35,548 nucleotides of DNA from a virus (Duplodnaviria > Heunggongvirae > Uroviricota > Caudoviricetes): IMG/VR virus record IMGVR_UViG_646564533_000012, one strand, 5' to 3'. The notes under the pieces are model-generated. The model was not told the origin of the DNA. It did no database searches and saw only the letters and a program-made list of their open reading frames with translations. Shown here piece by piece: positions 190 to 35,217 of this stretch. Numbering within the stretch: the first letter of the stretch is position 1; the number at the start of each line of letters is the position of its first letter. Position numbers and translations under genes: made by a program.

Positions 190-606
190 TCATTCGCTCC
201 CCTCTTTTTCCTTATTTCGTTGAACGCCAATTGCGACACACGTACTAAGCAAATCTTTACATTTCTCTACGTCTTCAGACTTACGCAATTTGATGCTTTT
301 TACAGACTGCGGGCTACTGTCCGTAGCACGATACATCGTTATTTCAATATCATTTCGGTCTAAGAGTCCCATAATGGCTTTTGCAACCTCCACACCCTTC
401 TTCGCGAAATCAAAGAACAGAGCAAGTTTATATGGATTTTCGACGGAAAAAACTTCAATTTTGCTAAAACCAACATCGTGTCGAGAAAAATATTGCTCAA
501 CCTCATCTCGAAGTTCTGGATCGCAGACAATGTCTATTCTCCAGTACTGACCTAAATGCAAATCGCTATTAACTGTTTTTTCCACAACATCCTCCTTACC
601 CAGCAA
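190..606 (-). CDS. hypothetical protein, AT-rich cargo gene coupled to int
   Basis: 138-aa track ORF whose start overlaps the int stop; strong AAGGAGG sits at the int stop, with an in-frame GTG about 5 nt downstream (alternative start near 585); visibly lower GC than the phage core; no recognisable motif. Confidence 0.55.
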   Translation of the reverse strand: MLGKEDVVEKTVNSDLHLGQYWRIDIVCDPELRDEVEQYFSRHDVGFSKIEVFSVENPYKLALFFDFAKKGVEVAKAIMGLLDRNDIEITMYRATDSSPQSVKSIKLRKSEDVEKCKDLLSTCVAIGVQRNKEKEGSE

Positions 607-1570
607 TAGGATTAAATCTCACCGCATCCTGCAAGTAATCCGGCGCAAGATGGGCATAAATCATCGTTGTCTGAATCTTTGCGTGCCCCAGAATTTTCTG
701 GAGCGTCAGAATATTGCCGCCGTTCATCATGAAATGACTGGCGAAGGTGTGGCGCAGCGCATGAACAGCCTGGCCGTCAGGAACATCAGGTGCGACCGTT
801 TTGATGACATCGCGAACCAATGGATAATCCAGCGTCGGAAACACCAGTTTCCCGCCCCGTTTTTTGATCTTTTCAAACAGGCTTTCAGAAATAGGAACGG
901 TACGGTTTTTGCTGTTCTTCGTTTTTGAAAAAGTGATTCGACAATGAAGAACACGGCGCTGCTCCAGTGCCGCTACCTCGCCCCATCGCGCCCCGGTCGA
1001 CAGAAGGATTTCGACAGCCAGCCGTTCATCGGGATTTTCAGCCAGTGCATCCAGCAACTGAACACATTCAGACTTACTCAGATATCCCATTTCGCGCTCG
1101 TTAACCTTCATTCCTTTAAGGCCTTGAACGGGGTTATCGTTAAGAAAATGGCCGGATGAGATGAGTGCGGTAAACATCGCGCTTAACGCCCCAATCTCTC
1201 GATTTATGGTGCTGGGCTGTATCCCCTGCTCTATCCTGGACACACGTAGCTCGGTGAGCATCGTTGTATTAAGTTTATGCACGCACGGGTCATCCATTGC
1301 CTCACTCAAGCGCAGCAATTTAAGGCGCGTGTTATGCCCTGACTTCATTAGCTGACCGTGGTATTTCCACCACAAGTCAATAAGCACTGACAGCGGACGG
1401 CGATCAATGGAGTTTCCTTTCCACTCATTGTTATGCTGTTGCGCCAGCACCCACCGCTCATATAAAACTGCATCCGATTTCGTTTTAAATTTTTTACGAA
1501 TGCGTTTGCCTTTACGCCCCTCCGGGCGCATGTCAAGAAGATATCCTCCCGGAATTGATTTTATGCTCAT
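596..1570 (-). CDS. int: site-specific tyrosine integrase (P2 Int family)
   Basis: Track ORF 596..1720 trimmed to the internal Met (MSIKSIPGG...); N-terminus and C-terminal HALRHTFASHF / LGH...T..YAH region align with P2 Int as I recall it. Confidence 0.93.
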   Translation of the reverse strand: MSIKSIPGGYLLDMRPEGRKGKRIRKKFKTKSDAVLYERWVLAQQHNNEWKGNSIDRRPLSVLIDLWWKYHGQLMKSGHNTRLKLLRLSEAMDDPCVHKLNTTMLTELRVSRIEQGIQPSTINREIGALSAMFTALISSGHFLNDNPVQGLKGMKVNEREMGYLSKSECVQLLDALAENPDERLAVEILLSTGARWGEVAALEQRRVLHCRITFSKTKNSKNRTVPISESLFEKIKKRGGKLVFPTLDYPLVRDVIKTVAPDVPDGQAVHALRHTFASHFMMNGGNILTLQKILGHAKIQTTMIYAHLAPDYLQDAVRFNPIAG

Positions 1571-1619
1571 TCGTGAAACCCCAGCGTTACAAGACCACCA
1601 TGCCCCCAGCGTTCCATGA

Positions 1620-1928
1620 TTAGCCGGGCTGTGTGCCAGTCTTGCGGGGTTTTTGAGAAGGCGATGTGCTTTTTGGCCCATCAGGGGAGAGAGACGGACT
1701 GATCTGCCCAGCAGCCTCATTTGTTTTTCCCGTCATAAGCCAATTCATGTACTTAAAAAAGCGAGGGTGATTAACAATCTTGATAAGCACTTCGCCCCCT
1801 ATGTTTTCAATCCGCCCCGTTTCATAACGACGCAAAGTGCCGATAGGCACATCAATCAGGCCGCAAAATTCTTCGCGCGTTAAATCCTCTGATTCACGAA
1901 TCACTCTAATTTTTTCACCGATAAGCAT
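1620..1928 (-). CDS. C: immunity repressor (P2 C-like HTH protein)
   Basis: Track ORF trimmed to Met13 (MLIGEKIRV...), about 103 aa; HTH segment and C-terminal FFKYMNWLMTG...GQISP resemble P2 C; divergent from the early operon. Confidence 0.85.
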   Translation of the reverse strand: MLIGEKIRVIRESEDLTREEFCGLIDVPIGTLRRYETGRIENIGGEVLIKIVNHPRFFKYMNWLMTGKTNEAAGQISPSLSPDGPKSTSPSQKPRKTGTQPG

Positions 1929-2024
1929 TGACAGTGTTCCTATAAGTACACTAAGCTTGCGCACAAGGTGTACTTATAAGTACACCAGGTCACAAACAAC
2001 CACAGATAGCGCAGGTTATCACAC
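1929..2024. promoter_or_regulatory. immunity switch region with divergent promoters and operators
   Basis: Perfect 18-bp palindrome GTGTACTTATAAGTACAC (approx 1968..1985) plus an upstream half-site TATAAGTACAC (approx 1941..1951); TTGACA near 1929; TATAAG looks like a -10 element. Confidence 0.55.
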
Positions 2025-3845: not shown

Positions 3846-4049
3846 ATGGCAATTAAGCATTTTCCCGTCGTTCGCTTTACCTCCAGAGGGCGCGAATACG
3901 AGGTCGACGAACGCCTGATTACCACTATCGACAAACATCGTTCGGAAAAGGATGCACACCACATCTACCTCACTGACGGCACTTACTTCTGCGCCACCAA
4001 CGTGGCGCGGGTGAATCTTATCCGACAGGTACAGGAGCCACGCAGATGA
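3846..4049 (+). CDS. hypothetical early protein
   Basis: 67-aa ORF, start/stop overlap with the next ORF. Confidence 0.45.
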   Translation: MAIKHFPVVRFTSRGREYEVDERLITTIDKHRSEKDAHHIYLTDGTYFCATNVARVNLIRQVQEPRR

Positions 4050-4312
4050 CCATTCTGGACTACATCGCTACTCATCCGGGTTGTAGCGGCGGAGAGATCG
4101 CCGCAGCACTGAATACTCCAACCACAGCCATTAATGCTGAGTTACGCCAACTTTGGCGCGGCGGCTTAGTCATCAGAACAAACCGCAGCACAGGTGGTCG
4201 CGCTCGCAAAACTGGAGGCCAGGCTTCTTACCACGTAAACCCGATGCCGTTCGGGTGTAGCAATCCACTTACTCACATGTTTAACCAGCTACTGAAGGAA
4301 GCCAGAACATGA
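4046..4312 (+). CDS. putative winged-helix DNA-binding protein
   Basis: 88 aa; segment GGEIAAALNTPTTAINAELRQLWRGGLV reads like a wHTH recognition helix and wing; translationally coupled on both sides. Confidence 0.5.
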   Translation: MTILDYIATHPGCSGGEIAAALNTPTTAINAELRQLWRGGLVIRTNRSTGGRARKTGGQASYHVNPMPFGCSNPLTHMFNQLLKEART

Positions 4313-4608
4313 GCACCATCAACCACCAGAAGCTACGCGAACTGGCATTTGCCCTGCAACGAATGGCAACGCCTCAAAAATTACTGGCGTTTCGCGCAAT
4401 GCTCTCGCCGTCTGCTGTGCTGGCACTGCTGGATGAGCTGGAGCACGCCAGAACCACGGCTCCTGCCATTCGCCTGACACTCCATCATGAAATCGCTGAT
4501 TTCTGCGCAACGTTGGAGGCACCCGGCGAACCGGAAACGCCGGAAGCAATACAGCAAGAGCTGCTGCAACGCATTGACAAGGTTTTTGATTTTTTTCTGA
4601 ACCAGTAA
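4309..4608 (+). CDS. hypothetical early protein
   Basis: 99-aa ORF coupled to the upstream gene. Confidence 0.5.
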   Translation: MSTINHQKLRELAFALQRMATPQKLLAFRAMLSPSAVLALLDELEHARTTAPAIRLTLHHEIADFCATLEAPGEPETPEAIQQELLQRIDKVFDFFLNQ

Positions 4609-4930
4609 GAAACCAGAACATGCACACACAAAAAAACCGCTTGCCATGCCGCAATCGGTCAGGTTACATTTCCGCTGCACCTCATAAAACGGGTGCCGGG
4701 ATTCTCAACCCGATACAGAGCAAAGCGCATAACCGCGCCAGCGGTTTTTTTGTGCGTACTGTATTGCCACGTCTTTTTCGCGTCAGAATTATGGCGGGGC
4801 GTACGGGGCCGACTTCGGTCGGGCCGGATTCTTTGCTCTCCGGTGTTGAGAACCCTGTACGTCTCGCCACCCCGAGATTCTCAACTCTGGATGGTGAGCT
4901 ATTTCTATCACCGAGCAAAGAGGCCACACC
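4609..4930 (+). ncRNA. structured non-coding region (candidate small RNA or protein-binding array)
   Basis: About 320 bp with no credible ORF between coupled early genes; UUCG-loop hairpin (approx 4807..4825); three copies of TTCTCAAC, two direct and one inverted (approx 4702, 4845, 4878). Confidence 0.3.
4731..4753 (+). terminator. putative intrinsic terminator inside the early region
   Basis: AACCGC-GCCA-GCGGTT hairpin followed by TTTTTTTG; coordinates approx. Confidence 0.35.
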
Positions 4931-5161
4931 ATGGCAAACCGCAAACAACAGCGCGCATACGCTGCGCGTCGTCACATCCAGACTGAAATCAACCGTAGAC
5001 TTTTCCGCGCATCACGCGTCGCGCAAATCATGCACATCAATATGCTGCATGAGCGCAGCCACGCACTATCAAACATTTATTCCGCCTCTGTTTTCAGTTA
5101 TCTGGCGGATGATCTGCACGAGCTTCAACAGCTCATCCAGCAGCAAAACAAACTCCATTAA
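4931..5161 (+). CDS. hypothetical small basic protein
   Basis: 76-aa ORF with AAGAGG upstream. Confidence 0.45.
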   Translation: MANRKQQRAYAARRHIQTEINRRLFRASRVAQIMHINMLHERSHALSNIYSASVFSYLADDLHELQQLIQQQNKLH

Positions 5162-5233
5162 TTCCTGTTCCGGGCCTTTCCTGCACCTTGCGGCGGGAGG
5201 CCTTCGCACATCTGTAGTAAAGAGAATTGCAGC

Positions 5234-5623
5234 ATGATTGACGCTCATGACTTCACAAGATGGGTGCGCACACAGGACACCCGTCTGGCTCCCGTTCTTC
5301 AGGGATTATTTGATCTCTACATCCGTGGTCGTGACAACAGAGCACACACCACAAAACCGGAAAATGCAGACACCCTTTATTTCACAGTAGACGACTGCTA
5401 CCGCGTGGACTTCACACCACACGGGCTGGCGTTGCATTGCCTGACACCACACGGAGAATCACTGCTGGCGTATTACGACTCCCCGGCCTCCGTATTTGCG
5501 GCAATGCTGGCGCATCGCACTGCTGGCGGGTGTGCCTCGCTGAGTGAATACACCGCTGAATTTAACCGCCTTTCTGCCCTCTTCTCGCAGGAGTGGCAGC
5601 GCGTGACGGGATACCAGCCATGA
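5234..5623 (+). CDS. hypothetical protein coupled to A
   Basis: 129-aa ORF whose stop overlaps the A start (ATGA). Confidence 0.55.
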   Translation: MIDAHDFTRWVRTQDTRLAPVLQGLFDLYIRGRDNRAHTTKPENADTLYFTVDDCYRVDFTPHGLALHCLTPHGESLLAYYDSPASVFAAMLAHRTAGGCASLSEYTAEFNRLSALFSQEWQRVTGYQP

Positions 5624-8460
5624 GTGAGTTTGCATGGAGCTGGAATGAACCACGGCCAGCCATTGATCCGGCCAGATTTACGGAGCACAGGCAGGAAACT
5701 GAAACCGACCTACAACGCGCCATCCGTTACTACCTTGAGGCAGACAAAAAGGCTCTGGAAGAACAGGAAGCGAAGGAGGAAGCCTTTTTCGCACAATCCA
5801 CCGTGGGTAAAAAACTCATGGCATCCCTTGAGGAAGCCGGACAGCGTGAAAAGCTGGCACAAAGCATCATCAGCAAGCGTCAGGCAACAGAACAAGACCC
5901 GGTGGCCCGTGCTTTTGCCACACTGAAGGTGCTTCCCGTTTATCTGCGTGAACCTCTGAGCCGCCACCTCTCTTTCCTGCGCAAAAAACAGGAAGCCGAT
6001 CGCCAGAAAGGCAAAAAGAGCTGGCAGGCTGAACGCTACGCGCGCGGAACCCTGCGCAAAATATTCGAACGCCTGGACCGCACCGATCACCGCTGGCTGA
6101 CACCGGGTTATCGCTCCCTTGCCGGACGCGAACGCCTGGACGATTTGCTTTACCTGCCGCAGCTCAACAAACACCAGATACAGACGCTGGCCACCATGAC
6201 GGCGGCGATGTTCAGCAGCACCTTCGAAAAACTCTGCGATGGCTTTGGTGCGACTGATGGCGAACTGACCATGGATGTAACGCTGAAGGCGTATCAGATG
6301 CTGGCCCGCATGGCGTTACACCTGCACGCCATGCCTCCACATTATGACGCACTGACAACAGACAAAGACCGGAGGAACGAACCGGACACGGAGCTGCTGC
6401 CGGGCGCAACCCTTCGCCTGACCTGTGCGGAATGGTGGAAACGCAAACTGTGGCTGTTACGTTGCGAGTGGAGAGAAGAACAACTCCGCGCCGCCTGTCT
6501 GGTTTCCAGAAAAACATCACCCTATCTGAGCCAGGACGCGTTAAGCGAGTTTCGCGCACAGCGCGAGAAAACACGCGATTTCCTGAAAAGTTTCATGCTG
6601 GAAAACGAAGACGGGTTCACGATTGATCTCGAGACAGTGTATTACGCGGGAGTAAGTAACCCGGTTCACCGTAAGGCAGAAATGATGGCCACCATGAAGG
6701 GGCTGGAACTTCTGGCCGAAGCCCGTGGCGACAAAGCGGTGTTTCTGACTGTCACCTGCCCGTCAAAATACCACGCCACAACAGAGAACGGTCATCCGAA
6801 TCCCAAATGGAACGGGGCCACCATGCGCGACTCCAGCGATTACCTGGTTAACACGTTTTTTGCGGCGGTCCGCAAGAAACTGAACCGCGACGGCCTGCGC
6901 TGGTATGGCATCCGCACAGTGGAGCCTCACCATGACGGCACCGTGCACTGGCATATGATGGTCTTTGCTCATCCGGAAGAAATCGACACCATTGTGTCCC
7001 ACACCCGCGATATTGCCATTCAGGAAGACCGCCACGAGCTGGGCAATGATATTACTCCGCGCTTTAAGGTGGAGTATGTCGACGGCTCAAAAGGCACGCC
7101 AACCAGCTACATCGCCACCTACATCGGAAAGAACCTGGACAGCCGCGCCGTGGATGGCATCGACCCGAAAACGGGCAAGCCACGCGTTGACCACGAAACC
7201 GGAAAATCAATGGCCGAGAGCGTGGAACGCGCCATCGGCTGGGCACGCCTTCACCGGGTCCGCCAGTTCCAGTTCTTTGGCATCCCCTCCCGTCAGGTAT
7301 GGCGTGAACTCCGCCGCCTTGCCAGCCAGATGGCACGCAACCCGGAAGGCCCACAACGGCTGAAGGATGATGCAATGGATGCGGTACTCGCTGCCGCTGA
7401 TGCCGGGTGTTTTGCCACCTACATTGAGAAACAGGGCGGCGTACTTGTTCCACGCAAAGACTACCTGATTCGCACCGCCTACGACCTCGCAGATGAGCTG
7501 AACGATTACGGCGAACAGAGCGTACAGATTTACGGGATCTGGTCACCACTCATCGGGGAATCCTCCCGTGTGTGCACGCACCCGGATAACTGGAAGCTGG
7601 TAAGACGTAAACCGGAAGCGGAAGACAGCACCCGCGAAAATGGTTTTGACCTTCAGGGCGGCCCTGCCGCCCCTTGGACTCGTGGCAATAACTGTCCCCG
7701 TGTACAGGAAACGGACAACAACGGGACAGAACAGCCGGAAGAACGGCCAGCACCGTGGCCGCAGCTCCCTGACGGCGTTGATGTGGATGAATGGATGCGC
7801 TCACTGAAACGGCACGAACGCCGGGCGCTGATGCGTTCGCTTCGTGACAAACAGGCAAAAAACAGCAGTGATGAAATGCAGAGCTGGACACAGAGCCGCA
7901 AACAGCAGCGGCCTTTGCCTGATAACCACGAATTACTCGCTAAAGAATGGCGGGAGTCTGCTGAATCTCTCGGCCTGCATATCGGTGAACAACAGATGCA
8001 GCACCTGTTACGGGGCGGCAGTCTGTACGTTGACGGCAGCATCATTGCACCGCAGGGATTTGAAATTGTACGCAAACCGGATACCCGCCCGGACAGCCGA
8101 ATCACGCAGCTCTGGCAGCGCCTGAGCCGTAATCATGGCGTAAGCAGCACGGAGATCCGCCATAACCCGGTCGCCAGCTATCTGACACAGCTGGAGGCAT
8201 CAGACCCTGAAGCCGCCGCACGCCTGGCATCCACACTTCAGCAGGACCAGAACACCATGAAAACACCCGTTACCGTGCTTTCTGACATGCTGCGCGCCAT
8301 CCGCGACGCAGAGCACGCACAGAGAATCAGTGAAACCACTGAACGCGCCCGCCGCAAAGCAGACCTGCTGCGGGGTGGCCTGACCAGTGGAAACAAAAAA
8401 CAGACAGAAACGGGACTCACGAATCCCGCAAATGAGCAAAAAACGCGCAGCGATATATGA
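5620..8460 (+). CDS. A: replication initiation endonuclease A (rolling-circle, HUH superfamily)
   Basis: Track ORF trimmed to MSEFAWSW; HUH-type motif HWHMMVF and paired catalytic tyrosines in TPTSYIATYIGK; about 946 aa with a long low-complexity C-terminal extension. Confidence 0.93.
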   Translation: MSEFAWSWNEPRPAIDPARFTEHRQETETDLQRAIRYYLEADKKALEEQEAKEEAFFAQSTVGKKLMASLEEAGQREKLAQSIISKRQATEQDPVARAFATLKVLPVYLREPLSRHLSFLRKKQEADRQKGKKSWQAERYARGTLRKIFERLDRTDHRWLTPGYRSLAGRERLDDLLYLPQLNKHQIQTLATMTAAMFSSTFEKLCDGFGATDGELTMDVTLKAYQMLARMALHLHAMPPHYDALTTDKDRRNEPDTELLPGATLRLTCAEWWKRKLWLLRCEWREEQLRAACLVSRKTSPYLSQDALSEFRAQREKTRDFLKSFMLENEDGFTIDLETVYYAGVSNPVHRKAEMMATMKGLELLAEARGDKAVFLTVTCPSKYHATTENGHPNPKWNGATMRDSSDYLVNTFFAAVRKKLNRDGLRWYGIRTVEPHHDGTVHWHMMVFAHPEEIDTIVSHTRDIAIQEDRHELGNDITPRFKVEYVDGSKGTPTSYIATYIGKNLDSRAVDGIDPKTGKPRVDHETGKSMAESVERAIGWARLHRVRQFQFFGIPSRQVWRELRRLASQMARNPEGPQRLKDDAMDAVLAAADAGCFATYIEKQGGVLVPRKDYLIRTAYDLADELNDYGEQSVQIYGIWSPLIGESSRVCTHPDNWKLVRRKPEAEDSTRENGFDLQGGPAAPWTRGNNCPRVQETDNNGTEQPEERPAPWPQLPDGVDVDEWMRSLKRHERRALMRSLRDKQAKNSSDEMQSWTQSRKQQRPLPDNHELLAKEWRESAESLGLHIGEQQMQHLLRGGSLYVDGSIIAPQGFEIVRKPDTRPDSRITQLWQRLSRNHGVSSTEIRHNPVASYLTQLEASDPEAAARLASTLQQDQNTMKTPVTVLSDMLRAIRDAEHAQRISETTERARRKADLLRGGLTSGNKKQTETGLTNPANEQKTRSDI

Positions 8461-8501
8461 AGCGCGCACAAAACAGGCAAAAACGGGATTTCAGAATCCC
8501 G
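8411..8501. repeat. two near-identical 18-bp palindromes (CGGGAYTC-N2-GAATCCCG), about 73 bp apart, at the A/parM junction
   Basis: Approx 8411..8428 and 8484..8501, each within a longer conserved direct repeat; candidate ParR-binding centromere/operator, or minus-strand terminators. Confidence 0.45.
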
Positions 8502-8536
8502 TAAACGATTAATTAATCAACATAAGGAAAAGCGAC

Positions 8537-9496
8537 ATGAAAATTTGTATCGACGACGGCTCCACCAACATCAAGCTGGCATGGACTGAGAACGGCGAAC
8601 GCCGCAACGCCATCAGCCCGAACAGCTTCAAGTCGGAATGGTCTGCGCCGTTCGGTGGCACGCAGCCCGCGAACTACATGCTTGATGGCGTGCGCTATGG
8701 TTTTGATCCGGTCAGCGATCGCTTTGTCCAGACGACCGACACGCAATACCAATACAGCGATGTGAATGTCATTGCCATTCATCACGCGCTGGTCAAATCA
8801 GGCATCACACCACAGGAGGTGGATGTGGTTGTCACCCTGCCACTGAGCGAGTATTTCGACACAAACGCACAGCCGGACATGGCCAACATCAACCGCAAAA
8901 AAGCGAACGTTATGCGCCCGGTGGAGTACCAGAACGGCGAAGCATTCACTATCCGTAACGTGCGGGTTATGCCTGAATCCATTCCGGCTGGCTTTAAGGC
9001 ACTGGCTGACATGAGTCCGTTTGAATCCCTGCTGATTGTGGATTTGGGCGGAACCACGCTGGATGTGGCAAAGGTTCAGGGGCAACTGGCAGGTATCAGC
9101 CAGGTGTTTTGCGATCCACACGTAGGCGTTTCTCTGATGGCCGATGCCGTACTGTCGGTGATGGCCACTAACGGTATGCGCACCAGTCACCACATCGCCA
9201 ATACCATTATCGAACATCGCCATGATGAAGCCTGGCTGCGCCAGCACATCCACAATGACGCGCATTACGACAGCCTGATGGCGGTTATTCGTGAAAAGGA
9301 AGAAACACTGAAACAACGAGTGATCCGCGCGCTGGCGGGTTTTTCGGGTTACGGGCGGGTGATGGTTGTCGGTGGCGGGGCGGAGATTGTGGCACCCGCT
9401 ATCCGCGAAGCCTGCGGAGTTAATGCGACTTTCATCGCGGACGGGGTGCCACAGTTTGCTCTGGTTAATGGGCTGTACGCAATGGACAAGGAGTAA
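8537..9496 (+). CDS. parM: ParM/StbA-like actin-type segregation ATPase
   Basis: N-terminus MKICIDDGSTNIKLAW matches the plasmid R1 ParM phosphate-1 motif; similarity continues (SPNSF, YSDVNV, HHAL, LIVDLGGTT); 319 aa. Confidence 0.88.
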   Translation: MKICIDDGSTNIKLAWTENGERRNAISPNSFKSEWSAPFGGTQPANYMLDGVRYGFDPVSDRFVQTTDTQYQYSDVNVIAIHHALVKSGITPQEVDVVVTLPLSEYFDTNAQPDMANINRKKANVMRPVEYQNGEAFTIRNVRVMPESIPAGFKALADMSPFESLLIVDLGGTTLDVAKVQGQLAGISQVFCDPHVGVSLMADAVLSVMATNGMRTSHHIANTIIEHRHDEAWLRQHIHNDAHYDSLMAVIREKEETLKQRVIRALAGFSGYGRVMVVGGGAEIVAPAIREACGVNATFIADGVPQFALVNGLYAMDKE

Positions 9497-34956: not shown

Positions 34957-35217
34957 ATGTTCCGTTGTCCGCTTTGTGGCGCATCTGCCCGTATCCGCAC
35001 CAGTCGTCCGGAAAATGATTCAAACACCGTGCGGCAAAAGTATTACCAGTGTAACAACCTGGAATGCGGCGTATGCTTCTCAACACTGGAAGCTTTCCAT
35101 AAATTCACATCGAAACACGCCTCCGGCATCCACTCTTCAGAAGGTATCCCGTGGCATGAGCTGCCAGCTTCACACAGGGGAAACAATCAGATGAGCTTGC
35201 CTTTACCTCAGAATTAA
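34957..35217 (+). CDS. ogr: late transcription activator Ogr/Delta family zinc-finger protein
   Basis: MFRCPLCGASARIRTSR...YYQCNNLECGVCFSTLE matches the P2 Ogr C-X2-C...C-X4-C pattern; AAGGGAGG upstream. Confidence 0.9.
   Translation: MFRCPLCGASARIRTSRPENDSNTVRQKYYQCNNLECGVCFSTLEAFHKFTSKHASGIHSSEGIPWHELPASHRGNNQMSLPLPQN

What the first reader, a model, noticed from the sequence alone, without database searches (positions are those of the whole stretch)
4609..4930. Structured 320-bp non-coding island inside the early operon
A gap between translationally coupled early genes holds a terminator-like hairpin, a UUCG-loop hairpin, and three copies of TTCTCAAC (two direct, one inverted, the last two forming an 8-bp stem). 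This reads like a small RNA, an attenuator controlling read-through into replication gene A, or a protein-binding array.
Basis: seen in the sequence. Interest (0 to 1): 0.5.

Follow-up and report, generated by a model that had tools for sequence, protein, structure and literature searches.

The report
IsrK–C4 antisense RNA immunity cassette
The "non-coding island" is a known kind of phage switch: a small antisense RNA with its leader RNA that blocks translation of an anti-repressor-like gene and so probably gates the replication genes, found here in a very common P2-like E. coli prophage and also crossed by a conserved reading frame.

Summary
The gap 4609-4930 holds a terminator hairpin, a UUCG hairpin and three TTCTCAAC copies.

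Rfam identifies the parts above its gathering scores: an isrK-type leader RNA (4677-4751, 62.8 bits) and a C4/CI-type antisense RNA (4787-4874, 78.5 bits). The repeats are the C4 loops a'/b' and their targets, a1/b1 upstream and a2/b2 downstream. Target b2 overlaps the Shine-Dalgarno of a 76-aa homologue of the P4 epsilon derepression protein, followed by orf129 and replication gene A.

Five P88-like phages carry four specificity types with matching changes at all six sites. Across 103 distinct IMG/VR modules, cognate loop-target complementarity far exceeds non-cognate. P4, P1 and Gifsy-1 have the same layout.

The island is not simply non-coding. A 205-codon ORF (4620-5237) crosses it in the frame of P4 eta and Gifsy-1 orf45. 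It stays open through the epsilon-like gene in all 25 relatives and usually ends in ATGA on the next gene's start.

Verdict: a new member of a known kind. The small-RNA and attenuator readings are supported; the protein-binding array is not. The cassette occurs in about 25% of complete E. coli genomes, and the two RefSeq records inspected leave the gap unannotated.

The parts
4620..5237 (+). Eta/orf45-like ORF of 205 codons. It spans the whole RNA cassette and the epsilon-like gene (in that gene's +1 frame). Its ATG lies 11 nt after the upstream gene's stop, and its TGA overlaps the ATG of orf129 (ATGA).
   Evidence: It uses the same frame relative to the C4 RNA as P4 eta and Gifsy-1 orf45. 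Pfam Phage_ASH scores 19.2 bits here (below the cut-off of 26), 27.1 in P88 and 82.4 in P4 Eta. The frame has 0 stops across the epsilon gene in 25 of 25 relatives, and 22 of 25 end in ATGA. Synonymous recoding leaves it open in only 0.6-19% of trials.
4624..4644 (+). Left arm of a long-range helix, a candidate anti-terminator. It is present only in transcripts that start upstream of the internal promoter.
   Evidence: It forms a 21-nt, 90% inverted repeat with 4737-4757. The fold of 4620-4760 replaces the terminator hairpin with this helix (-51.4 kcal/mol, z = -5.0). The feature is specific to epsilon-class modules, and L024, L099 and L130 carry a covarying variant.
4641..4670 (+). Internal sigma-70-type promoter (TTGCCA, 18 nt, TACATT). 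The predicted start is near 4677.
   Evidence: Consensus scan gives 9 of 12 matches. Both hexamers are invariant in five P88-like phages. The position matches that of P4's and P1's annotated P1c4/P51b promoters and of better-matching hexamers in Stx phages.
4677..4753 (+). IsrK / P4 seqA-type leader RNA: two hairpins, the a1 and b1 boxes, and an intrinsic terminator.
   Evidence: Rfam RF01394 scores 62.8 bits (gathering score 50), full length. The fold is -24.5 kcal/mol, z = -2.5. Hairpins 1 and 2 are 99% paired, and all 6 pairs of hairpin 1 show double-sided changes over 71 sequences.
4702..4709 (+). Target box a1 (TTCTCAAC), in the loop of leader hairpin 2. It is complementary to C4 loop a'.
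   Evidence: It changes together with a' and a2 in the four specificity types.
4717..4725 (+). Target box b1 (AGAGCAAAG), complementary to C4 loop b'.
4731..4753 (+). Rho-independent terminator of the leader RNA (6-bp stem, GCCA loop, T7).
   Evidence: It matches the terminator part of the isrK model and is invariant in P88-like phages.
4787..4874 (+). C4 / P4 CI-type antisense RNA. By analogy with the annotated P1 C4, the mature form is predicted at about 4793-4871.
   Evidence: Rfam RF01695 scores 78.5 bits (gathering score 45), full length. The fold is -47.6 kcal/mol, z = -4.9. Over 67 sequences, 97.8% of cells are paired and 16 of 28 pairs show double-sided changes; 0 of 500 shuffles match this. 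P1's misc_RNA c4 lies 6 nt inside the 5' end and 3 nt inside the 3' end of its Rfam match.
4809..4822 (+). UUCG-tetraloop hairpin inside C4 (helix 2).
   Evidence: All 5 of its pairs show compensatory changes.
4830..4839 (+). C4 loop b' (UCUUUGCUCU), antisense to b1 and b2.
4845..4852 (+). C4 single-stranded segment a' (GUUGAGAA), antisense to a1 and a2.
4878..4885 (+). Target box a2 (TTCTCAAC).
   Evidence: It also pairs in cis with a' (4839-4852 with 4878-4891).
4913..4923 (+). Target box b2 (GAGCAAAGA), overlapping the Shine-Dalgarno AAGAGG (4918-4923) of the epsilon-like gene.
   Evidence: The geometry matches the annotated b2 in front of icd in P1.
4931..5161 (+). 76-aa homologue of the P4 epsilon helper-derepression (anti-repressor) protein. 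It is the first gene controlled by C4.
   Evidence: Pfam PF25738 scores 32 bits (cut-off 27). BLASTP to P4 epsilon gives 33% identity over 51 aa, E = 5e-9. It also matches phrog_3688.
5234..5623 (+). orf129 (phrog_3237, function unknown). Its ATG overlaps the stop of the eta-like ORF, and its stop overlaps the ATG of gene A.
5620..8460 (+). Replication gene A (P2 GpA-type endonuclease), the last gene in the ATGA-coupled chain.
   Evidence: Pfam Phage_GPA, E = 1.6e-130. The RefSeq start corresponds to window 5620.

Best explanation
The island is an IsrK-C4 (P4 seqA-CI-seqC; P1 a1b1-c4-a2b2) antisense-RNA control cassette, built into the early operon of a P88-like (Xuanwuvirus, P2-type) prophage.

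Shown from the sequence:
- An internal promoter (4641-4670) precedes a 77-nt leader RNA (4677-4753). The leader carries boxes a1 and b1 and ends at an intrinsic terminator.
- Read-through RNA contains the C4-type RNA (4787-4874). Its exposed segments b' and a' are complementary to a1/b1 and to a second pair, a2/b2.
- b2 overlaps the Shine-Dalgarno of the epsilon-like gene.

Inferred from the homologous P1, P4 and Gifsy-1 systems:
- In the lysogen the internal promoter makes the leader RNA and, by processing, mature C4.
- C4 pairs with a2/b2 and blocks ribosome binding to the epsilon-like gene. The untranslated RNA is then terminated before orf129 and gene A.
- The cassette therefore acts as a sequence-specific second immunity that keeps the anti-repressor-like protein and replication off.

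Inferred from comparative evidence:
- When the early promoter fires, ribosomes arriving from the upstream early genes translate the 205-codon eta-like ORF (4620-5237) straight through the terminator, C4 and the target boxes.
- A long-range helix (4624-4644 with 4737-4757) that only these longer transcripts can form competes with the terminator.
- These ribosomes bypass the antisense block and are handed on through ATGA overlaps to orf129 and A.
For: Family identity. Both RNAs match full length above Rfam gathering scores. The same pair is found in P4 itself at seqA/CI, and C4 with c4-a1b1 is found in P1, where a1, b1, c4, a2, b2 and icd are annotated in the same order. Gifsy-1 has the same pair.

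RNA structure. C4 has 97.8% of cells paired and 16 of 28 pairs with double-sided changes, against at most 48.6% paired in slid controls. Leader hairpins are 99% paired.

RNA-RNA pairing.
- In five P88-like phages, 45 of 68 variable positions fall in the six a/b sites, which make up 97 of 315 nt. They define four specificity types, each internally complementary.
- Over 103 distinct modules with 47 loop combinations, cognate targets have at least 7 nt of Watson-Crick complementarity in 92% (a1), 99% (a2), 71% (b1) and 89% (b2). Non-cognate pairs reach this in 21%, 21%, 3% and 5%.
- b2 overlaps the SD 8 nt upstream of ATG 4931.

Controlled gene. It is a homologue of P4 epsilon.

Promoter. It sits at the position of the P4, P1 and Stx-phage promoters.

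Eta-like ORF.
- It is in the frame of P4 eta. Its in-frame AUG at 4791 corresponds to the first AUG (+107) of Gifsy-1 orf45, which was shown by tagging to be translated and to be coupled by AUGA to the anti-repressor gene.
- The frame is open in about 90% of the 103 modules, while the other two frames are closed.
- It has 0 stops across the epsilon gene in 25 of 25 relatives, against 1-5 in the other frame. In 22 of 25 it ends in ATGA, on at least five different next genes.
- The chance of openness is 0.6-19% per sequence, and relatives of only 48-58% nucleotide identity keep it open.

P4 mechanism. Summarised in PMC10111431, PMC4825925 and PMC3632133.
Against: There are no expression, end-mapping or genetic data for this phage, so every functional step is by homology.

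- The promoter matches only 9 of 12 positions.
- The eta-like ORF has no recognisable SD, and in this window it scores below the Pfam cut-off (19.2 against 26).
- Its peptide is poorly conserved (17-23% identity where epsilon keeps 34-43%). If it is translated, what matters is the act of translation, not the product.
- The role of a1/b1 differs between model systems. In P4 it is needed for immunity; in Gifsy-1 the short leader RNA activates.
- In a few relatives b1 complementarity is only 5-6 nt.
- The epsilon-like protein is 95% identical between this phage and P88, although their repressors are only 36% identical. Its target is therefore unclear.
- The long-range helix is invariant in most relatives and rests on a single covarying variant.
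Confidence: 0.75

Rival explanations
1. Gifsy-1-type activator logic. The short leader RNA is the active regulator. Acting in trans, it pairs through a1/b1 with the a'/b' region of the long transcript (or titrates C4). This opens the structure and switches ON translation of the orf45-like frame from AUG 4791, and by AUGA coupling the downstream genes. On this reading the cassette is mainly an induction trigger rather than an immunity device.
For: The Gifsy-1 cassette is homologous (isrK 79 bits, C4 69 bits). Its orf45 starts at the same conserved AUUAUGG and ends in AUGA on the next gene. IsrK in trans raised anrP translation more than 100-fold, and orf45 translation was needed. The window keeps the in-frame AUG at 4791 and an ATGA end at 5234-5237.
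Against: In P4 and P1 the same elements repress. AUG 4791 sits at the base of the 17-bp C4 stem with no SD. In the window the frame from 4791 must run 148 codons through another gene. The two logics are not mutually exclusive.
Confidence: 0.3
2. It is simply a protein-coding gene (an 'Ash family' protein of 205 aa), and the RNA matches are incidental.
For: An ORF spans the region. It has a Pfam Phage_ASH match and PHROG 'transcriptional regulator' matches. PhiR44_2 annotates it as a CDS.
Against: Substitutions keep base pairs, not amino acids. At the a/b sites, GILNPIQSK becomes GFRSLLTTQ, GISTPLTTT or GIGTPLTTK. The stems show compensatory changes. The Ash profile covers exactly the RNA module, including in P4, where (by published work I recall but could not read here) the immunity factor is an RNA. 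The C-terminal half overlaps the better-conserved epsilon-like frame.
Confidence: 0.03
3. The repeats are an operator or iteron array bound by a phage protein, for example the neighbouring wHTH protein.
For: There are three copies of an 8-mer within 184 nt, next to a MarR-type wHTH gene.
Against: The repeat sequence is completely different in sister phages that encode near-identical neighbouring proteins, yet always stays complementary to the C4 loops. The inverted copy lies in an unpaired segment of a covarying RNA fold.
Confidence: 0.02
4. It is a plain intrinsic terminator or attenuator that separates two early transcription units, or a decayed remnant of a captured P4-like cassette with no present function.
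For: A canonical terminator lies at 4731-4753. The cassette is shared with satellites and lambdoid phages, so it is mobile.
Against: All six pairing sites, the promoter and the stems are intact here and in hundreds of E. coli prophages. Specificity diversification with matching changes at all sites implies ongoing selection.
Confidence: 0.05

Closest known systems
Satellite phage P4 immunity region (PLE, seqA, cI/CI RNA, seqC, eta/kil, epsilon, then the alpha replication gene)
   Same: Both Rfam families hit P4 in the same order (isrK at seqA, C4 at CI). The promoter is internal to an ORF that spans the RNAs in the same frame (eta = Pfam Phage_ASH). An epsilon homologue and then replication genes lie downstream. 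In P4 the antisense RNA causes premature termination, and translation from an upstream promoter overrides it.
   Different: The host element is a full P2-type helper-like phage, not a satellite. The first gene after the targets is the epsilon-like gene itself, not kil. It lies out of frame (2 extra nt before the ATG), so it is overlapped by, rather than nested in, the eta-like ORF. The replication gene is P2 A-type, not the alpha primase. orf129 is unrelated to P4 orf151. The long-range helix was not seen in the other IMG/VR module classes (Kil-like, Rha, 77-aa); P4's own sequence was not examined for it.
P1/P7 immI (P51a/b, a1 b1, c4, a2 b2, icd, ant)
   Same: The order of elements is the same, with b2 at the RBS of a small first ORF (icd is 73 aa; the ORF here is 76 aa). 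An anti-repressor function is controlled, and specificity is set by the loop sequences.
   Different: P1's upstream part matches Rfam c4-a1b1 rather than isrK. No eta-like frame is open across P1 c4. Ant1/2 are unrelated to the epsilon-like protein.
Gifsy-1 isrK-orf45-anrP locus (STnc1160 is the C4-like RNA)
   Same: It has an isrK plus C4 pair. An ORF starting at the conserved AUUAUGG runs through C4 and ends in AUGA on the next gene. The nucleotide sequence is conserved while the peptide varies, and an anti-repressor is the output.
   Different: The Gifsy-1 ORF is 45 codons and couples directly to the anti-repressor. Here the frame is open from 4620, covers 205 codons, crosses the epsilon-like gene and couples to orf129 and A. 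The published logic for Gifsy-1 is activation by the short RNA.
N15 anti-immunity locus (cA 'secondary immunity repressor' RNA)
   Same: blastn of 4677-4880 hits the N15 cA region at 71% over 80% of the query. Barquist et al. list N15 among phages that use this RNA system.
   Different: N15 is a linear plasmid-prophage with different downstream anti-repressor genes. It was not examined further here.

Membership tests
C4 antisense RNA (Rfam RF01695; P1/P7 C4, P4 CI) | Covariance-model match at or above the gathering score, full length | tested here: met
   78.5 bits against a gathering score of 45, model positions 1-87 of 87, at 4787-4874.
C4 antisense RNA (Rfam RF01695; P1/P7 C4, P4 CI) | A long closing stem enclosing two hairpins, with the antisense segments unpaired | tested here: met
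   The minimum-energy and centroid folds are identical at -47.6 kcal/mol, z = -4.9. Over 67 sequences, 97.8% of cells are paired and 16 of 28 pairs show compensatory changes.
C4 antisense RNA (Rfam RF01695; P1/P7 C4, P4 CI) | Two complementary target pairs on the same transcript, one upstream (a1b1/seqA) and one downstream (a2b2/seqC) | tested here: met
   8-nt and 9-10-nt Watson-Crick matches at 4702-4709, 4717-4725, 4878-4885 and 4913-4921. The sites co-vary together.
C4 antisense RNA (Rfam RF01695; P1/P7 C4, P4 CI) | The downstream target occludes the ribosome-binding site of the first downstream gene | tested here: met
   b2 (4913-4921) overlaps AAGAGG (4918-4923), 8 nt before ATG 4931. 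The annotated b2 and icd in P1 have the same geometry.
C4 antisense RNA (Rfam RF01695; P1/P7 C4, P4 CI) | Matured from a longer precursor (RNase P / PNPase) to about 77-79 nt, and represses an anti-repressor or replication genes in vivo | not testable with these tools
   Only a prediction by alignment to the annotated P1 C4: mature form about 4793-4871.
isrK / P4 seqA leader RNA (Rfam RF01394) | Covariance-model match at or above the gathering score | tested here: met
   62.8 bits against a gathering score of 50, model positions 1-77 of 77, at 4677-4751.
isrK / P4 seqA leader RNA (Rfam RF01394) | Own promoter immediately upstream, and a Rho-independent terminator at the 3' end | tested here: inconclusive
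   A promoter-like site ends 7 nt before model position 1. It is conserved and positionally equivalent to the P4 and P1 promoters. A canonical terminator is present. No transcript data exist.
isrK / P4 seqA leader RNA (Rfam RF01394) | Hfq binding | not testable with these tools
   Nothing to report.
P4 Eta/Kil (Pfam PF10554 Phage_ASH): translated ORF enclosing the immunity RNAs | HMM match at or above the curated cut-off | tested here: not met
   The window ORF scores 19.2 bits against a cut-off of 26. The orthologous P88 ORF scores 27.1 and P4 Eta 82.4.
P4 Eta/Kil (Pfam PF10554 Phage_ASH): translated ORF enclosing the immunity RNAs | An ORF open across seqA-CI-seqC in the P4 eta frame, with the promoter inside it | tested here: met
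   The frame is AUU-AUG-G relative to the C4 start.
P4 Eta/Kil (Pfam PF10554 Phage_ASH): translated ORF enclosing the immunity RNAs | A nested in-frame C-terminal product (Kil) that starts just after the downstream target | tested here: not met
   In all 25 epsilon-class modules the post-target ATG is out of frame (+2) because of 2 extra nt. It is in frame in 69 other modules.
P4 Eta/Kil (Pfam PF10554 Phage_ASH): translated ORF enclosing the immunity RNAs | Translation of the ORF suppresses termination | not testable with these tools
   Indirect support only: selection for an open frame and for ATGA coupling.
P4 epsilon derepression protein (Pfam PF25738) | HMM match at or above the cut-off, and similarity to P4 epsilon | tested here: met
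   32 bits against a cut-off of 27. 33% identity over 51 aa, E = 5e-9.
P4 epsilon derepression protein (Pfam PF25738) | Binds and inactivates a P2-type C repressor | not testable with these tools
   Caveat: the protein does not co-vary with the phage's own repressor.
Protein-binding repeat array (operators or iterons) | Repeat sequence conserved together with the binding protein | tested here: not met
   The repeats differ completely among sister phages with near-identical flanking genes, yet stay complementary to the RNA loops.

The most novel reading that the evidence does not exclude
P88-like helper-type phages have taken over the P4-style immunity and derepression cassette and rebuilt it in three ways.

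- A 205-codon 'ribosome conduit' ORF, selected only to stay open, overlaps two RNA genes and the entire epsilon-like gene out of frame. It hands ribosomes to the replication genes through ATGA overlaps.
- A promoter-specific long-range anti-terminator helix lets early-promoter transcripts ignore the leader terminator.
- Freely recombining a/b loop modules (at least 14 combinations in this clade) create a second, RNA-encoded hetero-immunity layer. That layer may also mediate conflict with P4-like satellites.
Probability: 0.4. Interest if true: 0.55.

Novelty: new member of a known kind. Interest (0 to 1): 0.33.

Why it matters
The cassette sits in prophages present in about a quarter of complete E. 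coli genomes (1353 of 5426). In the two RefSeq records inspected the 322-nt gap is blank and no ncRNA is annotated. In the phage records inspected it is unannotated or called a hypothetical or 'Ash'-like protein.

Recognising it has three consequences.
- It assigns a likely function (RNA-based secondary immunity, and gating of an anti-repressor-like gene and of replication) to a very common prophage region.
- It shows that P2-type phages, the helpers of P4, carry homologues of P4's own immunity RNAs and of epsilon. One survey states that delta is the only P4-specific gene with clear homologues in P2-like phages.
- It flags that Pfam Phage_ASH, used in that survey as the 'epsilon' marker for satellites, actually models the translated RNA module.

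The natural set of specificity variants, with matching changes at all sites, is a ready-made orthogonal set for testing RNA-RNA recognition rules.

Tried and rejected
- tRNA/tmRNA scan of the window: nothing found.
- Weak Rfam matches in 4300-5300 (CRISPR-DR33, STnc410, Ms_IGR-4, Hrs13) are all far below their gathering scores. I treated them as chance.
- The second promoter-like site at 4764-4792 would start inside the C4 closing stem. Its '-10' is the conserved AAUUAU leader. I rejected it as a functional start.
- The fourth TTCTCAAC (35077) and the fourth GAGCAAAG (6963, minus strand) are not adjacent to each other and are within chance expectation. There is no evidence for trans targets in the window.
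- orf129 against P4 orf151: no similarity.
- A first attempt to score loop-target pairing while allowing G-U gave noisy cross-matches. I replaced it with Watson-Crick runs over 103 modules.
- My first extraction of leader RNAs picked the wrong T-run in epsilon-class loci and was redone. In the resulting alignment the terminator helix scores only 65% paired, because two stem types are misaligned; this does not mean the stem is absent.
- Forti et al. 1999 (PMC94026) is not held. The P4 mechanism is therefore cited through secondary summaries.
- The long-range anti-terminator helix was not found outside the epsilon class.
- No a'/b' combination is shared between the epsilon class and the satellite (Kil) class in this sample. 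Direct cross-immunity with P4-like satellites is therefore not supported so far.
Full report
1. WHAT IS THERE

The window is a P88-like (Xuanwuvirus, Peduoviridae; P2-type) prophage. The best deposited relative is Escherichia phage PhiR44_2, at 94.7% identity over 4300-5700. Its left end carries an integrase (596-1720, minus strand), an HTH repressor (1620-1964, minus strand) and a Cox-like gene (2025-2303). A rightward early operon follows and ends in replication gene A.

The finding's coordinates, 4609-4930, are exactly the gap between the stop of an Ead/Ea22-like ORF (4309-4608) and the ATG of a 76-aa ORF (4931-5161).
- the terminator hairpin at 4731-4746 followed by T7;
- the UUCG hairpin at 4809-4822;
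- TTCTCAAC at 4702, 4878 and, inverted, 4845.

The window holds four copies of TTCTCAAC against 1.0 expected, and none of 100 shuffles reaches four. Three of the copies lie within 184 nt.

2. IDENTIFICATION

Rfam gives two full-length matches above gathering score:
- isrK (RF01394) at 4677-4751, 62.8 bits against a gathering score of 50;
- C4 antisense RNA (RF01695) at 4787-4874, 78.5 bits against 45.

The same pair occurs in every relative I fetched. It also occurs in satellite phage P4, where the isrK match lies on seqA and the C4 match on the CI immunity RNA. P1 has C4 together with c4-a1b1. Gifsy-1 has isrK and C4.

The P1 record annotates the order P51a/b, a1, b1, c4, a2, b2, icd, ant. 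Using that nomenclature, the window has:
- a1: TTCTCAAC, 4702-4709
- b1: AGAGCAAAG, 4717-4725
- b': UCUUUGCUCU, 4830-4839, the loop of C4 hairpin 3
- a': GUUGAGAA, 4845-4852, an unpaired segment of C4
- a2: 4878-4885
- b2: 4913-4921

b2 overlaps the Shine-Dalgarno AAGAGG (4918-4923) of the 76-aa ORF. The three 'repeats' are therefore one antisense segment and its two targets, and there are two such sets.

3. IS IT MORE THAN CHANCE, AND IS THE PAIRING FUNCTIONAL?

Folding. C4 folds to -47.6 kcal/mol (z = -4.9) and the leader to -24.5 kcal/mol (z = -2.5).

Stem covariation. I collected 120 IMG/VR loci with a loop-agnostic pattern.
- On 67 C4 sequences, the structure has 97.8% of cells paired and 16 of 28 pairs with changes on both sides. 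None of 500 shuffles reaches the observed values, and slid controls give at most 48.6% paired. Helix 3 was partly fixed by the search pattern.
- On 71 leader sequences, hairpins 1 and 2 are 99% paired, and all six pairs of hairpin 1 show double-sided changes.

Loop-target co-variation is the strongest evidence. Five near-identical P88-like phages are 93-95% identical in the flanks but only 86% identical in the island. Of 68 variable positions in the island, 45 lie in the six a/b sites, which make up 97 of 315 nt. These positions define four specificity types, each fully self-complementary:

| Phage | a box / a' | b box / b' |
|---|---|---|
| window | TTCTCAAC / GTTGAGAA | GAGCAAAG / CTTTGCTC |
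| PhiR44_2 | TTCGCAG / CTGCGAA | CTACACAAG / CTTGTGTAG |
| P88 | TTTCCAC / GTGGAAA | CAACTACAG / CTGTAGTTG |
| Shae_phiSM | TTGGAAC / GTTCCAA | CAACCAAAG / CTTTGGTTG |

The wider sample has 103 distinct modules and 47 loop combinations. The share of modules with at least 7 nt of Watson-Crick complementarity is as follows:

| Target | Cognate | Non-cognate |
|---|---|---|
| a1 | 92% | 21% |
| a2 | 99% | 21% |
| b1 | 71% | 3% |
| b2 | 89% | 5% |

This is what selection on RNA-RNA pairing predicts. It excludes a protein-binding array.

4. CONTEXT AND OUTPUT

The 76-aa ORF is a homologue of the P4 epsilon helper-derepression protein: Pfam PF25738 at 32 bits against a cut-off of 27, and 33% identity over 51 aa to P4 epsilon, E = 5e-9. 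Next come orf129 (phrog_3237, function unknown) and gene A.

P4 has the same order: seqA, CI, seqC, (kil), epsilon, further genes, then the alpha replication gene.

In the IMG/VR sample the first gene after the targets falls into four classes:
- Kil-like, 64 aa, in P4-like satellites;
- Rha-family or anti-repressor proteins, 120-187 aa;
- a 77-aa protein;
- the epsilon-like protein, with 25 distinct modules.

Among deposited phages the epsilon-like protein is found only in Xuanwuvirus-type phages.

A promoter-like site (TTGCCA, 18 nt, TACATT; 4641-4670) ends 7 nt before Rfam isrK position 1. It is invariant in the five P88-like phages. It lies where P4 and P1 (annotated P1c4/P51b) have promoters and where Stx phages have near-consensus hexamers.

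5. THE ISLAND IS NOT SIMPLY NON-CODING

An ORF of 205 codons (4620-5237) spans the region. It starts 11 nt after the upstream stop.

Homology of the frame.
- It is the frame of P4 eta relative to C4, read as AUU-AUG-G.
- Pfam Phage_ASH is in effect the translation of the isrK-C4 module. It scores 82 bits on P4 Eta, 68-76 on the N-termini of Stx and ASU11 Rha proteins, 27 on the P88 ORF and 19 on the window ORF.
- The in-frame AUG at 4791 is the same conserved AUG as the first start (+107) of Gifsy-1 orf45. I verified this on the Gifsy-1 sequence. That ORF runs through the C4-like RNA and ends in AUGA on the anti-repressor gene anrP.
- Hershko-Shalev et al. showed by tagging that orf45 is translated and that anrP translation needs it. 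They also found its nucleotide sequence conserved while its peptide varies.
- For P4, secondary accounts state that PLE lies inside eta, that eta is translated only from the upstream promoter, and that its translation prevents termination.

Comparative evidence.
- The frame is open from at least 150 nt upstream to at least 290 nt downstream of the C4 core in about 90% of the 103 distinct modules. The other two frames are closed.
- In all 25 epsilon-class modules the post-target ATG is out of frame, because of two extra nucleotides. The eta-like frame is therefore the +1 frame of the epsilon-like gene.
- That frame has no stop across the epsilon-like gene in 25 of 25 modules. The +2 frame has 1-5 stops.
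- Synonymous recoding of each epsilon protein with this phage's codon usage leaves the +1 frame open in only 0.6-19% of trials, typically about 6%.
- Lineages with only 48-58% nucleotide identity to the window (L024, L099, L130) still keep the frame open. In that frame the peptide is only 17-23% identical, while epsilon keeps 34-43%.
- In 22 of 25 modules the ORF ends in ATGA on the start codon of the next gene, and at least five different next genes are involved.

In the window this completes a chain of coupled genes: 3846-4049, 4046-4312, 4309-4608, an 11-nt gap, 4620-5237, 5234-5623, then 5620-8460.

I conclude, with probability about 0.65, that ribosomes traverse the cassette in this frame. 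What seems to be selected is passage of the ribosome, not the peptide.

6. A FURTHER FEATURE: A LONG-RANGE HELIX

4624-4644 is 90% complementary to 4737-4757, which is the 3' arm of the terminator plus the U tract.

When the upstream arm is included, the predicted fold replaces the terminator hairpin with this helix (-51.4 kcal/mol, z = -5.0). The arm lies upstream of the internal promoter, so only transcripts from the early promoter can form it.

The helix is specific to the epsilon class: 15 nt are perfectly complementary in 13 of 25 modules, against a background of 8 nt or fewer in most other classes. L024, L099 and L130 carry a covarying version, CACGUACAAAAACCGC with GCGGUUUUUUUACGUG. This is suggestive, but it rests on one alternative sequence type.

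7. MECHANISM

Shown from sequence: the architecture, the RNA folds, complementarity conserved through co-variation, occlusion of the SD by b2, and the open frame with its ATGA ends.

Inferred from homologous systems (P1, P4, Gifsy-1):
- In the lysogen the internal promoter yields the terminated leader RNA and, by read-through and processing, mature C4 (predicted at about 4793-4871 by alignment to the annotated P1 C4).
- C4 binds a2/b2 and blocks translation of the epsilon-like gene.
- The untranslated RNA is terminated before orf129 and A. This gives a sequence-specific second immunity.

Inferred from comparative data:
- Transcripts from the de-repressed early promoter are translated through the eta-like ORF and can form the anti-terminator helix.
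- They therefore bypass both the terminator and the antisense block, and they deliver ribosomes to orf129 and A.

The role of a1/b1 is unresolved. It may be a co-target needed for repression, as in P4, or a decoy and activator, as reported for Gifsy-1 IsrK.

The target of the epsilon-like protein is also unknown. It is 95% identical between this phage and P88, whose repressors are only 36% identical.

8. COMPARISON WITH WHAT IS KNOWN, AND NOVELTY

The RNA families are curated. Their equivalence across P4, P1, P7, N15 and lambdoid prophages has been stated in print as the 'IsrK-C4 immunity system' (Barquist et al. 2013). At least one Stx-phage record annotates both RNAs. The finding is therefore a new member of a known kind.

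Variant features that I did not find described in the papers I could search:
- the location inside the early operon of a P2-type phage;
- control of an epsilon homologue that lies out of frame inside the eta-like ORF;
- ATGA hand-over to the replication genes;
- the long-range helix.

One survey of P4-like satellites states that delta is the only P4-specific gene with clear homologues in P2-like phages. It used PF10554 as its 'epsilon' marker. Both points are qualified by the results here.

The cassette with the epsilon-like gene occurs in 1353 of 5426 complete E. coli genomes. The two RefSeq records I inspected leave the gap unannotated.

9. VERDICT

- Observation: confirmed.
- Interpretation: partly supported. 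The small-RNA reading and a P4-like attenuation reading hold. The protein-binding array does not, and 'non-coding' needs qualification.
- Interest: modest (0.33). The core is textbook phage biology that a covariance-model scan identifies at once.
- Still worth an experiment: the overlapping conduit ORF and the natural set of specificity variants.

Noticed in passing
window 4620-4953; L008 (P4) 8168-8767, minus strand: Pfam PF10554 'Phage_ASH' models the conceptual translation of the isrK-C4 RNA module (P4 Eta scores 82 bits). A published survey of P4-like satellites used PF10554 as its 'epsilon' marker, whereas true epsilon is PF25738. P88-like phages would therefore register as carrying that marker.
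   Followed up: partly
L027 9729-11072; L019 4711-5401; L101: Some IMG/VR contigs carry two or three C4 cores about 656-659 nt apart. These are tandem isrK-C4-Rha-like (about 120 aa) cassettes with different loop sequences.
   Followed up: no
IMG/VR modules: The loop combination CGATAACG/TACGCC is shared by modules in front of Kil-like (P4-satellite), 77-aa and Rha-type genes. This suggests possible RNA cross-immunity between unrelated elements. Epsilon-class combinations were not shared with other classes in this sample.
   Followed up: partly
window 5172-5203: A GC-rich hairpin lies between the epsilon-like stop and the orf129 start (5155-5240 folds to -28 kcal/mol, z = -1.65). It is conserved among close relatives. 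It could be a pause or termination signal analogous to P4 timm, or it could be chance.
   Followed up: no
window 8537-9496: A ParM/StbA-type actin-like plasmid segregation protein is encoded directly after replication gene A, in both this prophage and P88. That is unusual for an integrating P2-type phage.
   Followed up: no
window 5234-5623 (L131 1826-2215): The orf129 homologue WP_089567520.1 is named 'inositol monophosphatase' in RefSeq. No Pfam family supports this, and the only PHROG match has unknown function. The name is probably spurious.
   Followed up: partly
window 1620-1964 (minus strand) compared with L001 1170-1451 (minus strand): The window's repressor is only 36% identical to the P88 C protein, while the epsilon-like proteins are 95% identical. 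The RNA specificity type, the repressor type and the gene after the epsilon-like gene (orf129 or orf121) appear to assort independently among P88-like phages.
   Followed up: partly
window 3846-8460: An almost unbroken chain of 4-nt ATGA stop/start overlaps links six consecutive early ORFs. The only break is the 11-nt spacer before ATG 4620.
   Followed up: yes
window 35077-35084 and 6963-6970: There is a fourth copy of TTCTCAAC, and a fourth copy of GAGCAAAG on the minus strand inside gene A. They are not adjacent and are consistent with chance.
   Followed up: yes
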